Shown here in pieces: positions 57,013-64,000 of a DNA stretch of 64,000 nt. The notes beneath the pieces are model-generated. The model was not told where the DNA came from and did not search any database. It saw nothing but the letters and a program-made list of their open reading frames with translations. Every line of letters begins with the position of its first letter. The stretch's first letter is position 1. Source of the DNA: Escherichia coli (GTDB lineage Bacteria; Pseudomonadota; Gammaproteobacteria; Enterobacterales; Enterobacteriaceae); the NCBI RefSeq assembly GCF_024502345.1, contig NZ_JALDNN010000003.1; one strand, written 5' to 3'. Made by a program: the position numbers and the translations under genes.

Positions 57013-58403
57013 TGCGTCCGTTGGAATTGCACCGGCAGGATACGAATTTAACCGACCCCGTGGCGGGAGGGTTATCACAATTGCATGTCCTCATCCCTAA
57101 AGTCCCCTGCCAGACCCATACGTGCTGTCAGGCTTCGCCTGATTTGAGATCAGTGCAAATACTTCAGCCGATAACTTTTTGTTTTCTTTTTATTTTCTCC
57201 CTGTTTCCTCAAAATTCGCGTGCGGCCTGGTCAGGGCACGATTGTCACATAGGGTGTATTGAAGCGGGCAGGATGGTCGGGTGGGCACGGCCTGGGTTTG
57301 AGTCGGACACTATGTGGGATGAGGACATGCAAAATATTCGCTTTATCTGTGAAAACTGTTGTCTACGGGCAGTCACCAGTTCAAGTTACACCATCCACGT
57401 TAGCTTTTAATAAGAGTGGTTACGATGTTCAGTACTGAGAAAAAATCAGAGCATTTAGGTCAGATCATAGTGATTGATCCCGCGCTTCTTGGGCAGGGTA
57501 TAGAGGTTGGCCCGGTCGTAGTGTTTGATTTGGGGCACGCCAGCAAAGGGGTTGCGGACTTGATGCGCGATGCTGAAAAGCTTGATGGTTTATCCCCAAC
57601 GACAATAGCAAACAGACTTTCACGATGACCGAACAAGGTCGATTCGGGCAAGGCGGCGGAGGGGCACATCTCCCAATGATAATGAGGTTATGCAACCTGT
57701 TAGTCACCGGCTTGCCTGATGTTATGATTGACATCTCTTTTGACCGGTCTGTAGTTGAGCATTAATTCGTGAGGAATACGGTATCAGCGGATAAAAGTAG
57801 CATGTTTGCTATCGCCTCCAGCTGTGAAAACCCTCGGTGGGTGCAAGAAGTTGAGAGCCGTGGGGGGATGACCCGTAAGGAATGGGCTGACTTTGTGGAT
57901 CGAAATTTTAACCCTCCTAAATAGAGTAAATTCCGATTGGCATTGTTGCAGGAATTATGGTGCCGCAGCTTATTGGGTGTTTGTCAATTGCCGGGAAGTA
58001 TTCGCTGGCATATCACTTAAACGGGAGTAGTAAGTGAGAGAACCTCGTCCACGCCATACATTACAGGTAGTCTGTGTCCCGTCTCTGAATATACAGGATC
58101 TGGGGCTAACCAGTTTTCATAGCTGGCTCTTATCAAAAGGCTATGACACGACCAATGCCAGGAACAACCGTACTTGCTGGGCAAGGGAAGGTGGCTGGCA
58201 CCTGAAGCGATGCAGACATCTGGCAACGGGCGAAGATCATTTCTGGTTTATCGCATTCAACGGTACCGGCGGCGACATTTTTCCTGTGAAAACCCAGCAG
58301 GACTACCGTGCTGCCTACCGCAAGCTTGAAGCGTATGGATATGCACCGGCCGTTATTGAACAATTGAACACAGGCGTTGCCTATAATCTTGCTTATTCAC
58401 GGA

Positions 58404-58470
58404 CACCTGTGGGATGCAAATAAAGGTTCATCCGTATAAATAAAGTATCATCCGTATAAATAAAGTTTCA
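58404..58470 (+). repeat. Three tandem roughly 20-bp direct repeats (AAATAAAG-N-TCATCC-like) at the Tn7-like left end; candidate TnsB binding sites
   Basis: GCAAATAAAGGTTCATCCGTAT / AAATAAAGTATCATCCGTAT / AAATAAAGTTTCATTCTGAG read directly from the sequence. Confidence 0.5.
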
Positions 58471-58527
58471 TTCTGAGCCTGCATCCGCTATGTTGAGGTC
58501 ATCGACACAGCGGGGGCAGGCTTTCTC

Positions 58528-61429: not shown

Positions 61430-63032
61430 AGAATTCCAGCGCGGAGTCATTCCCCTGGCGCGTTACCAGGAGCAGCAGCTTCCCGAGTATCAGGACAATC
61501 CGCTCATCAGCGCATTGCCTCCGATTCCTGATCTGCAGGAGGTGGTCGATCTATTGCAGCAGCTTCCCGGTTTCGAGCCGCAGGAGGCGCTTCTGGATGG
61601 TCGGCTCAGGGCACATGCGATTGCCCGCCTGTTGCACGGCTTCTTCCAGCCGCTGAGCCATCACTTGGAGCTGGAGAGCAAGATCAGCCTGATGATCCGT
61701 CAAGGGTACATCGGTCGGAATCCGGCCAGCGGTGCCTGGTATGCGCACCTGCAGAATGGCTATCGCCGTGTCGAGGAGGAGGATCTGGATGCGGCGGTGT
61801 ACCAGAGTGTCTCCTCTACGGCCAACAGCCTGTCGCTGTTCGGCTGCTCCGGTTGCGGCAAGACGCGCACGCTGGAGCGGATTCTGGGCATGTACCCCCA
61901 AGCTCTCCATCACCCTGATTACGACATCACCCAACTGGTCTACCTGAAGATCGACTGCCCAATTGACGGTGACTTGGATGAGCTGTGCCTGAGCTTCTTC
62001 AACGAAGTAGACAAGATCCTGGGTACCCACTACAGCCGTAGCCACGGACGCAAGAAGCTGGGTACCAAACGTCTGCTGGCATCCATGTGCCAGCTGGCCA
62101 ATCTGCACACGCTCGGAGTGCTGATCATCGACGAGGTTCAGAACCTCAACGAGGCACGCTCCGGTGGTGCCGAAAAAATGCACAATTTCTTCGTGTCGCT
62201 GGTGAACACCATCGGTGTTCCGATCATTCAGGTCGGCACCCACCGGGCCAGCAAGTTCTTCCAGCGCACGTTCCGGGCTGCTCGGCGGGTCTCCGGGTTG
62301 GGCAGCATCCGCTGGGATAGGTTGCCTCGGGACGAGCATTGGAAGCGTCTGTTGAAGCGGCTTTGGAAGTATCAGTGGCTGCGAAATGCGGCGCCGCTGG
62401 ATGATGAACTGGAGGCTACGATGTACGACCTCACCCAAGGGGTCATGGACATCGTCATCAAGCTGTTCGCGCTGGCGCAGATCCGGGCGATAGTGACAGG
62501 TGTCGAGTGCATTAAGCCGCTGTTGCTGCGCAGGGTTTTCGAGGACGAGTTCAAACCGGTCCATCCGATGCTGGCGGCCTTGCGGAGCGGTAGGCCCGAG
62601 CTGATCGCCAAATATGACGACCTGCTGATGCCAGAGATCGAGGGACGGTTGCTGACCCTGACTCGCTCTCTGGATAGCGTCCCCCAACCTAAACCACCGG
62701 CCCCTCCGGCTGATGACAAGGCAAAGCGGTTGGCCGCCCTGCTCGAAGGTATGGAAATCCCGAGGGACATCGCCATTCCCATGGCCGATGAATTGTTGGC
62801 GGAGAATCCGGACATCCCGCTGGCGGCCCTGATTCACAAGGCCACGGCCTACCTCGCGCAGGACGCTCCCAAGAGGCCCGGCATTTCCAGAGTTAAGCGG
62901 ACGGAGTGGGGGTGCCTATCCGAGGAGGATCTGCGCCGACGTTATGCCGATGGGCCTGAAAGCGAGGCCTATGACAGATTCAAGCAGGCTGGCTTGATCC
63001 TCGATCTACGGCCTCTGCTGAGAGCGAGCTGA
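61422..63032 (+). CDS. tnsC: TnsC-like AAA+ transposition regulator
   Basis: GCSGCGKT Walker A, VYLKIDCP, LGVLIIDEVQNL and LTQGVMDIVIKLF are collinear with Tn7 TnsC. Confidence 0.85.
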   Translation: MTEEFQRGVIPLARYQEQQLPEYQDNPLISALPPIPDLQEVVDLLQQLPGFEPQEALLDGRLRAHAIARLLHGFFQPLSHHLELESKISLMIRQGYIGRNPASGAWYAHLQNGYRRVEEEDLDAAVYQSVSSTANSLSLFGCSGCGKTRTLERILGMYPQALHHPDYDITQLVYLKIDCPIDGDLDELCLSFFNEVDKILGTHYSRSHGRKKLGTKRLLASMCQLANLHTLGVLIIDEVQNLNEARSGGAEKMHNFFVSLVNTIGVPIIQVGTHRASKFFQRTFRAARRVSGLGSIRWDRLPRDEHWKRLLKRLWKYQWLRNAAPLDDELEATMYDLTQGVMDIVIKLFALAQIRAIVTGVECIKPLLLRRVFEDEFKPVHPMLAALRSGRPELIAKYDDLLMPEIEGRLLTLTRSLDSVPQPKPPAPPADDKAKRLAALLEGMEIPRDIAIPMADELLAENPDIPLAALIHKATAYLAQDAPKRPGISRVKRTEWGCLSEEDLRRRYADGPESEAYDRFKQAGLILDLRPLLRAS

Positions 63033-63033
63033 C

Positions 63034-64000
63034 ATGTACTTCCCCAGGCTCTACCCGGACGAACTGCTTTACAGCGGTATTGCCCGGTGCCGGGTACATC
63101 TGGGGATAGGCAGCCACAAGACCTTGCTGCACATGCTTTTCGGTGACAGCAAGGTTGCCGCGATCACCGATCTGCCCACACACCTGACTGCGTTGGCGAA
63201 CAACACGGGCTTGGATGCGGAAGGCATGATCCTGAATCACACGCTGTTCCCGCTCTATGCCCCTTTCATTCCGCCGGAGCGCCGTACCGATCTTTTTCAG
63301 GCCATGCTTGCTCCCGACCGGCCGACGATTGGTCTGTCTGGGGCCTCGACGGCCTTGGTCAAGTGGCCCGATTGGCTGCGTTACTGCCCGATCTGCTTTG
63401 AAGATATGGCTGCGCGCTACGGTGAACCCTACTGGCGGCGCAGCTGGCAGATTCAAGGGATAGATGCCTGTCCCGAGCATGGCTGTCAGCTCCTGAACTC
63501 ACCTATCCCGTTCCGTCGAGCGCAGCGGCACGAGTTTCATACAGCCTCTCCACTGTTTCTGCCCCGTGATCTTCGCGTGAGTCCCGTGGGCGAAGAGGCT
63601 ATCAGGCTCGCCAAGGCTGCTATGCAGCTGCTGGCGCTCGAAGAGGTGCAATCGCCTGGCTACGGACGCTGGACCAACCTGTACCGGTACCTGGCTACAG
63701 AGTGCGGCGCCAGGCGAGGCCGGCAGGTCAGGGCTGAAGTCATCTGGGAGAAGATCCTGGCATCCCATCAAAGGGATTGGCTTGCTGCGAACGGTCTGCT
63801 GACATCCGGAGAGCCTCCACCTTGGCTGTTGGCGATGTTCAGGAAGCATCGCAAGGGATTCAGTGCGCTGCAGCATCTGATCGTCTGGACCAGCCTGCGC
63901 CCTGGCCAGCATGCTGGCGAGCTGATCAGCGAGGCGAAGACTCGCCAGGTCGACCTTGCCTCCGAGCGGTCAGTGCAGCTGCTCCCTGCTGAGTTTGAGC
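63034..64000 (+). CDS. tnsD: TnsD-like target-site selector (3'-truncated by the window end)
   Basis: N-terminus MYFPRLYPDELLYSGIARC...LFPLYAPF...RYCPICFEDMAARYGEPYWRRSWQ...CPEHG parallels Tn7 TnsD; not in the supplied ORF track because no stop codon is reached before the window end. Confidence 0.7.
   Translation, partial: MYFPRLYPDELLYSGIARCRVHLGIGSHKTLLHMLFGDSKVAAITDLPTHLTALANNTGLDAEGMILNHTLFPLYAPFIPPERRTDLFQAMLAPDRPTIGLSGASTALVKWPDWLRYCPICFEDMAARYGEPYWRRSWQIQGIDACPEHGCQLLNSPIPFRRAQRHEFHTASPLFLPRDLRVSPVGEEAIRLAKAAMQLLALEEVQSPGYGRWTNLYRYLATECGARRGRQVRAEVIWEKILASHQRDWLAANGLLTSGEPPPWLLAMFRKHRKGFSALQHLIVWTSLRPGQHAGELISEAKTRQVDLASERSVQLLPAEFE

What the first reader, a model, noticed from the sequence alone, without database searches (positions are those of the whole stretch)
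58398..64000. GC-rich Tn7-like element enters the window; only its left end and tnsABCD are visible
The element begins with TGTGGG at 58398 followed by three tandem TnsB-site-like repeats, then tnsA, tnsB, tnsC and the start of a TnsD-like gene, and is clearly more GC-rich than the upstream DNA. Cargo, any TnsE or CRISPR-associated module and the right end lie outside the window. The upstream ORF 58034-58423 runs 25 bp into the transposon end, so the insertion may have disrupted or created a gene junction.
Basis: partly seen in the sequence, partly recalled or inferred. Interest (0 to 1): 0.5.

Follow-up and report, generated by a model that had tools for sequence, protein, structure and literature searches.

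The report
Tn7-family heat-resistance transposon, right end
This is one end and the transposition genes of an already described Tn7-family transposon that carries a heat-resistance island; it has landed inside an HNH endonuclease gene on an IncHI-type plasmid backbone, so the finding is real but ordinary.

Summary
The finding is real, with small coordinate errors. The element starts with TGTGGG at 58408, not 58398. Three abutting 20-bp TnsB-site repeats follow at 58418-58477, then tnsA, tnsB, tnsC and the first 322 codons of a TnsD-type gene (TniQ plus TnsD domains). GC rises from 0.47 to 0.585.

The boundary is proven by comparison. Other copies match only from 58406-58408 onward. Empty-site IncHI plasmids match up to 58407 and then continue an intact 268-aa HNH endonuclease gene. 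ORF 58034-58423 is therefore a truncated HNH gene: 125 native residues plus 4 transposon-encoded ones, with a 16-bp overlap rather than 25.

Near-identical public copies continue with tnsE and the heat-resistance locus (LHR/tLST, clpK). They carry no CRISPR module.

Complete copies are 28-29 kb, have an inverted far end and make 5-bp duplications. A 98.4% identical variant sits in canonical attTn7, 25 bp after glmS. So this is a glmS-targeting TnsABCDE element, and by convention the visible end is the right end.

In every public copy sharing this junction, the far end or the other half of the HNH gene is missing, cut away by IS26 or other IS-associated rearrangements. This copy is therefore probably immobile.

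Tn7-like transposons carrying or flanking this island are already in the literature, though without the end and target-site detail worked out here. Interest is low.

The parts
58034..58407 (+). 5' fragment (codons 1-125) of an HNH endonuclease gene of the IncHI plasmid backbone. This is the gene hit by the insertion. The ORF reads on to 58423, adding VGCK* from the transposon end.
   Evidence: The intact 807-bp gene (WP_001209044.1, 268 aa) is present in the empty-site plasmids pCO_Eco4457-1 and NCTC_13148 plasmid 2. The first 125 aa are identical, and the match stops at 58407.
58403..58407 (.). ACACC, the presumptive 5-bp target sequence. Only the right-end copy is visible; a second copy is expected beyond the far end.
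   Evidence: Inferred from the 5-bp duplications of complete sibling copies: ACTGG, GGGCT and GTTGC. The empty site reads ...ACACC|GTTAAAACG.
58408..58415 (+). Terminal 8 bp of the transposon (TGTGGGAT), the Tn7-type TGT terminus.
   Evidence: The junction was mapped by comparison with other insertion contexts and with empty sites. The same 18 nt occur inverted at the far end of complete copies.
58418..58477 (+). Three abutting 20-bp direct repeats, presumed TnsB-binding sites. Their arrangement is that of a Tn7 right end.
   Evidence: The far end of complete copies has the same motif at +11, +156 and +211, which is left-end-like spacing.
58475..58523 (+). Strong hairpin between the last repeat and the tnsA start. 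Its 3' arm covers the purine-rich stretch just before the ATG. Its function is unproven; it may block read-in transcription or translation.
   Evidence: Inverted repeat with 21-nt arms. The RNA fold is -32.2 kcal/mol with z = -5.4. It is largely kept in the 98.4% variant.
58528..59355 (+). tnsA (275 aa), the endonuclease subunit of the heteromeric transposase.
   Evidence: E = 2e-60 to Tn7 TnsA (1f1z) with 41.5% identity. E63, D114, Q130 and K132 are conserved.
59342..61429 (+). tnsB (695 aa from GTG 59342; alternative ATG at 59369), the DDE transposase subunit.
   Evidence: E = 2e-187 to Tn7 TnsB (7pik) over residues 4-691, with 44% identity. The DDE triad aligns at D272, D360 and E395.
61422..63032 (+). 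tnsC (536 aa), the AAA+ regulator.
   Evidence: E = 1e-122 to Tn7 TnsC (7mbw, 8glu).
63034..64000 (+). tnsD, first 322 of 500 codons, cut by the window end. This is the target selector.
   Evidence: The frame is open to the window end. The full-length protein from near-identical copies has TniQ (PF06527, 5e-29) plus TnsD (PF15978) domains, and scores E = 1e-46 to Tn7 TnsD residues 1-318.

Best explanation
Window 58408-64000 is the right (tnsA-proximal) end and the tnsA-tnsB-tnsC-tnsD genes of a Tn7-family transposon. Complete copies are about 28-29 kb. Beyond the window, the element encodes TnsE and carries the transmissible heat/stress-resistance locus (LHR/tLST: sHSP20, clpK, ftsH, yfdX, hdeD, trx, kefB, a GGDEF cyclase, psiE, htpX, degP).

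It works like Tn7. TnsB binds the repeated sites at the two ends. TnsA plus TnsB excise the element by cut-and-paste, and TnsC couples them to a target selector. TnsD directs insertion 25 bp downstream of glmS, with the right end next to glmS. TnsE directs insertion into replicating DNA, especially conjugating plasmids. Each insertion makes a 5-bp duplication.

The copy in the window is not at attTn7. It landed inside an HNH endonuclease gene of an IncHI-type conjugative plasmid backbone and cut that gene after codon 125. The TnsE pathway is the most likely route, but this is inferred. This one junction then spread with the backbone segment among E. coli and Klebsiella plasmids and into chromosomes. 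In the public copies sharing the junction, the cargo and far end were later truncated by IS26 or other IS-associated rearrangements. This copy is therefore most likely a one-ended, immobile remnant that still has an apparently intact tns operon.
For: **Shown**

- The protein set is homologous end to end with Tn7 TnsA, B, C, D and E. The catalytic residues of TnsA and TnsB are conserved.
- The end has a Tn7-type TGTGGG terminus plus three abutting sites.
- The boundary is at 58407|58408, fixed by alternative contexts and by empty sites.
- Public copies that differ from the window at only 2 nt over 58000-64000 continue with tnsE and the LHR genes.
- Complete siblings have an inverted far end and a 5-bp duplication:
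  - E. coli G3/10: 29,080 bp, ACTGG.
  - Strain 81: 28,920 bp, GTTGC.
  - TC24: 27,957 bp, GGGCT, starting 25 bp after the glmS stop codon with the tnsA end next to glmS.
- Six of 5,426 complete E. coli genomes carry that glmS junction.
- The TnsD of the window type is 93% identical to that of the attTn7 copy, with only 4 differences in the first 300 residues.
- The target is an IncHI1A/MOBH conjugative backbone. 155 of 196 matching plasmids are conjugative.
- The 70 nt flanking the insertion show chance-level in-register identity to the glmS att flank, 28-31%.
- Among records sharing the junction, the far end was found only in 2273-PO3, where its flank does not match, and at the separate attTn7 copy of 1218KP. 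The distal HNH half was found in none of them. The cargo is cut by IS26 in 1218KP and MSB1_9D, and it ends at an IS5/IS1182 fragment in pKL53-L.

**From the literature**

- The convention for naming the right end, the overlapping-versus-spaced site architecture, and the TnsD and TnsE pathways: PMC11406308.
- Tn7-like transposons carrying or flanking LHR/tLST: PMC8012707 and PMC8290217.
Against: - The window stops inside tnsD. tnsE, the cargo and the state of the far end are therefore inferred from public relatives, which differ from the window at 2 nt in tnsD. None of them contains the whole window.
- Use of the TnsE pathway for this insertion is an inference from target type only. No orientation or replication analysis was done.
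- No experiment shows that this element transposes.
- NCBIfam gave no family-level hit for any Tns protein, so family assignment rests on Pfam and PDB sequence homology.
Confidence: 0.9

Rival explanations
1. The copy in the window is a complete, still mobile transposon. Its far end and the second ACACC repeat would lie beyond position 64000, next to the 3' half of the HNH gene.
For: The tns genes visible in the window are intact. The window is not identical to any public record examined: it differs at 2 nt and no record covers it fully. Its own downstream sequence is therefore unknown. Complete siblings exist elsewhere.
Against: No listed E. coli record sharing the 58407|58408 junction contains the distal half of the HNH gene (60 of 66 matching records were listed). 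The only far ends found in such records are the 2273-PO3 one, whose flank GTACA does not match ACACC, and the separate attTn7 copy of strain 1218KP. Where examined, the cargo is truncated by IS26 or ends at an IS5-family fragment.
Confidence: 0.08
2. The insertion into the HNH gene was made by the TnsD pathway at a glmS-like pseudo-attachment site, or by untargeted TnsABC activity, rather than by TnsE.
For: Pathway use was not tested directly. Literature on a different Tn7-like element (Tn7/sil/pco) describes use of non-glmS chromosomal sites (PMC8417528).
Against: The flank next to the right end has only chance-level in-register identity to the glmS att flank, 28-31%. The target is a conjugative IncHI backbone, which is the preferred TnsE target (PMC11406308). 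The insertion destroys a gene, unlike TnsD insertions downstream of glmS.
Confidence: 0.12
3. It is the yhiN-targeting Tn7-like element (Tn6230-like) that carries the sil/pco silver and copper resistance island of IncHI2 plasmids, or it is a CRISPR-associated transposon.
For: IncHI plasmids often carry Tn7/sil/pco (PMC8417528). pKL53-L has sil genes and a second tnsA fragment.
Against: The attachment site used by a 98.4% variant is glmS, not yhiN. The cargo in near-identical copies is LHR, not sil/pco. No copy of this element's terminal sequence was found near the sil-linked tnsA fragment in pKL53-L at up to 5 mismatches in 20 nt. The gene after tnsD is tnsE, and no cas genes are annotated.
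Confidence: 0.01

Closest known systems
Prototype Tn7 (tnsABCDE, attTn7 downstream of glmS)
   Same: - Same five-gene order.
- All five proteins are homologous over their full length, except that TnsE matches only through its C-terminal domain.
- TGTGGG terminus, packed sites at the tnsA-proximal end and spaced sites at the other end.
- 5-bp duplications.
- A 98.4% variant inserts 25 bp after glmS with the right end proximal.
   Different: - Protein identity to Tn7 is only about 42-44% for TnsA and TnsB.
- The right end has three 20-bp-spaced sites instead of four overlapping 22-bp sites.
- The cargo is the roughly 19-kb heat-resistance locus instead of the class 2 integron.
- GC content is about 58-62%.
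Tn7-like transposon carrying LHR and tdcA in Pseudomonas aeruginosa CF39S (Almblad et al. 2021, PMC8012707); tLST islands flanked by Tn7 elements (Kamal et al. 2021, PMC8290217)
   Same: The combination is the same: a Tn7-type transposition module with the LHR/tLST cargo, including a GGDEF diguanylate cyclase.
   Different: Sequence identity to the CF39S element was not measured here. Those papers do not, in the passages read, define the ends, the duplications, glmS targeting or the HNH-gene junction.
Tn7/sil/pco element of IncHI2 plasmids (yhiN attachment site; Tn6230-like)
   Same: It is also a Tn7-like tnsABCDE element found on IncHI plasmids, and it co-resides with the present element on pKL53-L.
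   Different: It has a different attachment site (yhiN versus glmS) and different cargo. This element's terminal sequence was not found next to the sil-linked tnsA fragment in pKL53-L.

Membership tests
Tn7 family (glmS-targeting TnsABCDE elements) | Heteromeric transposase: a TnsA endonuclease with its catalytic residues plus a TnsB DDE transposase. | tested here: met
   TnsA scores E = 2e-60 to 1f1z, with E63, D114, Q130 and K132 kept. TnsB scores E = 2e-187 to 7pik, with the DDE triad aligned at D272, D360 and E395. The residue numbers for Tn7 come from my own knowledge.
Tn7 family (glmS-targeting TnsABCDE elements) | TnsC AAA+ regulator encoded after tnsB. | tested here: met
   E = 1e-122 to Tn7 TnsC over residues 13-471.
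Tn7 family (glmS-targeting TnsABCDE elements) | TniQ-domain target selector of the TnsD type. | tested here: met
   Pfam TniQ 5e-29 plus TnsD 2e-13, scored on the full-length protein of a near-identical copy. E = 1e-46 to Tn7 TnsD 1-318. The window holds the first 322 codons.
Tn7 family (glmS-targeting TnsABCDE elements) | TnsE second target selector. | tested here: met
   It is not in the window. In near-identical copies the next gene (526 aa) matches the Tn7 TnsE C-terminal domain at E = 1e-10 and is annotated TnsE.
Tn7 family (glmS-targeting TnsABCDE elements) | TGT...ACA termini with several TnsB sites, arranged asymmetrically at the two ends. | tested here: met
   The window end has sites at +11, +31 and +51. 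The far end of complete siblings has sites at +11, +156 and +211 and the same inverted 18-nt terminus.
Tn7 family (glmS-targeting TnsABCDE elements) | 5-bp target-site duplication. | tested here: met
   Three complete siblings have one: ACTGG, GGGCT and GTTGC. For the window copy only one side (ACACC) is visible.
Tn7 family (glmS-targeting TnsABCDE elements) | Site- and orientation-specific insertion downstream of glmS. | tested here: met
   The 98.4% variant lies 25 bp after the glmS stop with the tnsA end proximal. Six of 5,426 E. coli genomes have this junction. The window copy itself is not at this site.
Tn7 family (glmS-targeting TnsABCDE elements) | Demonstrated transposition activity. 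| not testable with these tools
   Activity is only inferred, from several independent insertions that each have a duplication.
CRISPR-associated Tn7-like transposons (CAST) | cas genes and a CRISPR array within the element, with a short TniQ. | tested here: not met
   The selector is a full-length TnsD-type protein and is followed by tnsE. No cas genes are annotated in the complete siblings.
Tn6230-like Tn7/sil/pco elements | yhiN attachment site and sil/pco cargo. | tested here: not met
   The attachment site is glmS and the cargo is LHR.
LHR/tLST heat-resistance island (as cargo) | The core genes sHSP20-clpK(clpG)-...-degP lie between the transposon ends. | tested here: met
   The annotated cargo in near-identical and complete copies contains these genes. 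The cargo is not within the window.

The most novel reading that the evidence does not exclude
This widely disseminated junction is a one-ended Tn7-family remnant that still encodes intact TnsABCDE. Strains such as E. coli 1218KP and the ST536 mussel isolate also carry a complete sibling at attTn7. In those strains the remnant could act in trans on the sibling, by supplying Tns proteins or by conferring target immunity on the IncHI backbone. The strong conserved hairpin (58475-58523) that covers the tnsA ribosome-binding region could be a so far undescribed fold-back control that shields the tns operon from read-in transcription coming from the disrupted HNH gene.
Probability: 0.15. Interest if true: 0.3.

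Novelty: already known. Interest (0 to 1): 0.12.

Why it matters
The result explains how the heat, pressure and chlorine resistance island (LHR/tLST) moves. That island is a concern for food safety and hospital hygiene. It rides a bona fide Tn7-family transposon that can park downstream of glmS or hop onto conjugative plasmids. Here it sits on an IncHI backbone segment shared by E. coli and Klebsiella plasmids.

For genome annotation, the 129-aa 'hypothetical protein' WP_001209045.1 is a transposon-truncated HNH endonuclease. The window copy is probably no longer mobile as a transposon and spreads only with its plasmid segment. None of this challenges current understanding of Tn7.

Tried and rejected
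- **NCBIfam.** A scan of the five Tns proteins and the HNH protein gave no family-level hit, only a weak IS481 match for TnsB. Family assignment therefore uses Pfam and PDB homology.
- **Far end in pKL53-L.** I searched the 94 kb fetched from that plasmid for the inverted far end and found none. There the cargo ends 106 nt into the far-end query, at an IS5/IS1182 fragment.
- **E. coli 2273-PO3.** This strain has the window-type junction and an intact far end, but the far-end flank is GTACA, not ACACC. It is rearranged or recombinant and does not give the original right-hand junction.
- **Distal half of the HNH gene.** It occurs in 66 E. coli records, but in no listed record that carries the junction (60 of 66 listed).
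- **Source of the window.** No public record contains the whole 25 kb tested. The best are 1218KP (two pieces, with about 5 kb extra in the record) and the ATCC 98082 plasmid (91%).
- **Tn7/sil/pco and CAST.** Both were considered and rejected.
- **Pseudo-att (TnsD) explanation.** Rejected on chance-level similarity to the glmS flank.
- **Promoter and terminator scan.** The consensus scan of 58300-58700 found nothing.
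Full report
**1. Observation**

- The hexamer TGTGGG is at 58408-58413, ten bases to the right of the stated 58398.
- After two further bases and a 2-nt gap (58416-58417) come three head-to-tail 20-bp repeats: 58418-58437 AAATAAAGGTTCATCCGTAT, 58438-58457 (90% identical) and 58458-58477 (75%).
- The core AAATAAAGNNTCATCC, with up to 1 mismatch, occurs three times in the 64-kb window, all here. The expectation is 0.02, and none of 100 shuffles reached 3.
- The ORFs follow as described: 58528-59355 (275 aa), 59342-61429 (695 aa), 61422-63032 (536 aa), and an open frame from ATG 63034 to the window end.
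- GC is 0.585 for 58408-64000 and 0.471 for the preceding 6 kb.
- ORF 58034-58423 crosses the boundary by 16 bp, not 25.

**2. The boundary is real**

- Megablast against 5,426 complete E. coli genomes and 72,556 plasmids found the 5.6-kb segment in about 100 and 196 records. In many different contexts the alignment starts at window 58406-58408.
- Conversely, IncHI-type plasmids such as pCO_Eco4457-1 and NCTC_13148 plasmid 2 match the upstream DNA up to exactly 58407 and then diverge.
- In those plasmids the sequence continues ...ACACC|GTTAAAACG... as an intact 807-bp gene for a 268-aa 'HNH endonuclease signature motif containing protein' (WP_001209044.1).
- The window ORF shares its first 125 residues and then reads VGCK-stop from the transposon end.
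- So the insertion disrupted a gene. The 129-aa 'hypothetical protein' WP_001209045.1 annotated in public records is the truncated product.

**3. The proteins**

| Protein | Match to prototype Tn7 (solved structures) | Notes |
|---|---|---|
| TnsA | E = 2e-60 (1f1z), 41.5% identity over 265 residues | E63, D114, Q130, K132 conserved |
| TnsB | E = 2e-187 (7pik), 44% identity, aligned from residue 4 | Favours the GTG start at 59342; DDE residues aligned at D272, D360, E395 |
| TnsC | E = 1e-122 | |
| TnsD | E = 1e-46 to Tn7 TnsD 1-318 | 500 aa, taken full-length from near-identical public copies; Pfam TniQ (5e-29) plus TnsD (2e-13) |

It is a TnsD-type selector, not a short CAST-type TniQ.

**4. 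What lies beyond the window**

- Public copies differ from the window at only two bases, both in tnsD (63441 and 63967). They continue with a 526-aa TnsE (E = 1e-10 to the Tn7 TnsE C-terminal domain).
[quoted passage not shown] Its genes are an HTH gene, sHSP20, clpK, cls, ftsH, hsp20-GI, yfdX1/2, hdeD-GI, trx-GI, kefB-GI, a GGDEF cyclase, psiE-GI, htpX and degP.
- No cas genes or arrays are annotated.

**5. Complete copies, ends and duplications**

| Strain | Element length | 5-bp duplication | Insertion site |
|---|---|---|---|
| E. coli G3/10 | 29,080 bp | ACTGG | Inside a UvrD-helicase-domain gene |
| Strain 81 | 28,920 bp | GTTGC | Splits an integrase gene |
| Strain TC24 (98.4% identical variant) | 27,957 bp | GGGCT | 25 bp after the glmS stop codon, tnsA end next to glmS |

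- In G3/10 the far end is the inverted sequence TGTGGGATGCAAATAAAGTTTCATCC.
- The TC24 position and orientation are those of canonical attTn7.
- Six of 5,426 E. coli genomes have this glmS junction.
- The TnsD of the two variants is 93% identical, with only four differences in the first 300 residues.
- The tnsA-proximal end has sites at +11, +31 and +51. The far end has sites at +11, +156 and +211.
- This packed-versus-spaced asymmetry is the Tn7 right/left pattern. By convention the end upstream of the tns genes is the right end (PMC11406308).

**6. How this copy arrived and its present state**

- The target is an IncHI1A/MOBH conjugative backbone, and 155 of 196 matching plasmids are conjugative.
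- The 70 nt next to the right end resemble the glmS att flank only at chance level, 28-31% in register.
- The insertion also destroys a gene. All of this fits the TnsE pathway, which targets conjugating plasmids (PMC11406308), rather than TnsD. This step is inferred, not shown.
- The same junction is present in at least 11 E. coli records, on both plasmids and chromosomes, and in a K. pneumoniae plasmid. That indicates a single event spread with the backbone segment.
- None of the listed records with the junction has the distal half of the HNH gene.
- Only two junction-bearing records show a far end at all. Strain 2273-PO3 has one, but its flank is non-matching (GTACA). Strain 1218KP has one belonging to its separate attTn7 copy.
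- In 1218KP and MSB1_9D the cargo is cut by IS26 after hdeD. In pKL53-L it ends at an IS5/IS1182 fragment just after degP.
- Some Klebsiella and E. coli plasmids keep only the first 240 bp of the element.
- The window copy is therefore most likely a one-ended remnant. This cannot be proven, because no public record contains the whole window.

**7. Comparison with what is known, and novelty**

- The element meets every sequence-testable defining feature of the glmS-targeting Tn7 family (see the membership table). It is not a CAST.
- It is not the yhiN-targeting Tn7/sil/pco element that also lives on IncHI2 plasmids (PMC8417528).
- The association of LHR/tLST with Tn7-type transposons is already published. 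Almblad et al. 2021 show a Tn7-like transposon carrying tdcA and LHR genes in P. aeruginosa CF39S (PMC8012707). Kamal et al. 2021 note Tn7 elements flanking tLST (PMC8290217).
- RefSeq already annotates the genes as TnsA, TnsD and TnsE. The finding is therefore correct but known.
- The small additions made here are the exact ends, the duplications, the glmS attachment site, the identity of the disrupted HNH gene, and the decayed state of this junction lineage.

**8. Loose end**

A 49-nt hairpin (58475-58523; -32.2 kcal/mol; z = -5.4) lies between the last repeat and the tnsA ATG, and it covers the purine-rich stretch before the start codon. It is mostly kept in the 98.4% variant, which has one wobble-compatible change, one disruptive change and one change in a bulge. 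It may shield the tns operon from read-in expression, but two variants give no statistical power.

Noticed in passing
window 58475-58523: A strong hairpin (-32.2 kcal/mol, z = -5.4) sits immediately upstream of the tnsA start codon and overlaps the likely ribosome-binding stretch. It may protect the tns operon from outside read-through. It is largely conserved in the 98.4% variant.
   Followed up: partly
window 42706-42823: There is an Rfam IS1222 ribosomal frameshift element (156.6 bits), marking an IS3-family insertion sequence in the plasmid-derived region upstream. Related public records annotate IS1, IS26, IS66 and ISSen4 copies in the same stretch.
   Followed up: no
window 63441 and 63967: The window has C where all the best public matches have T. 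The second difference changes TnsD residue 312 from W (public copies) to R. R is also the residue in the attTn7 variant, so the window carries the likely ancestral state and is not identical to any record examined.
   Followed up: partly
L003 / NZ_CM173878.1 (E. coli 1218KP chromosome), 2.50 Mb and 4.98 Mb: One strain carries two members of the family: the HNH-junction copy, truncated by IS26, and a complete 98%-identical variant in attTn7. The ST536 mussel isolate has the same pairing, with the plasmid junction copy plus a chromosomal attTn7 copy.
   Followed up: partly
L002 26380-26796 (pKL53-L, NZ_CP030920.1 131379-131795): A second, unrelated tnsA fragment lies next to ISKpn26, about 25 kb from the sil genes, on the same plasmid. 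It may be a remnant of the yhiN-type Tn7/sil/pco element.
   Followed up: no
L004 17800-20032 (E. coli G3/10): The complete copy in G3/10 is inserted in a UvrD-helicase-domain gene that follows an 'ATP-dependent nuclease' gene. This looks like a Gabija-like defence pair inactivated by the transposon. The flanking genes (lsrK, hipBA, cspF, ynfU) are terminus-proximal in K-12 (my own knowledge), a region favoured by TnsE-mediated insertion.
   Followed up: no
L003 28244-29008 (between tnsE and the LHR genes): Fragments of an ATP-binding protein gene and of transposase genes lie between tnsE and the cargo in all copies. They are likely scars of how the heat-resistance island was captured by the transposon.
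   Followed up: no
window 58408-58648; K. pneumoniae plasmids CP067775/CP067802/CP067897 and E. coli NZ_CP081783/NZ_CP081685: Several plasmids retain the HNH junction but only the first 240 bp of the element. This is a further deletion derivative of the same insertion.
   Followed up: no
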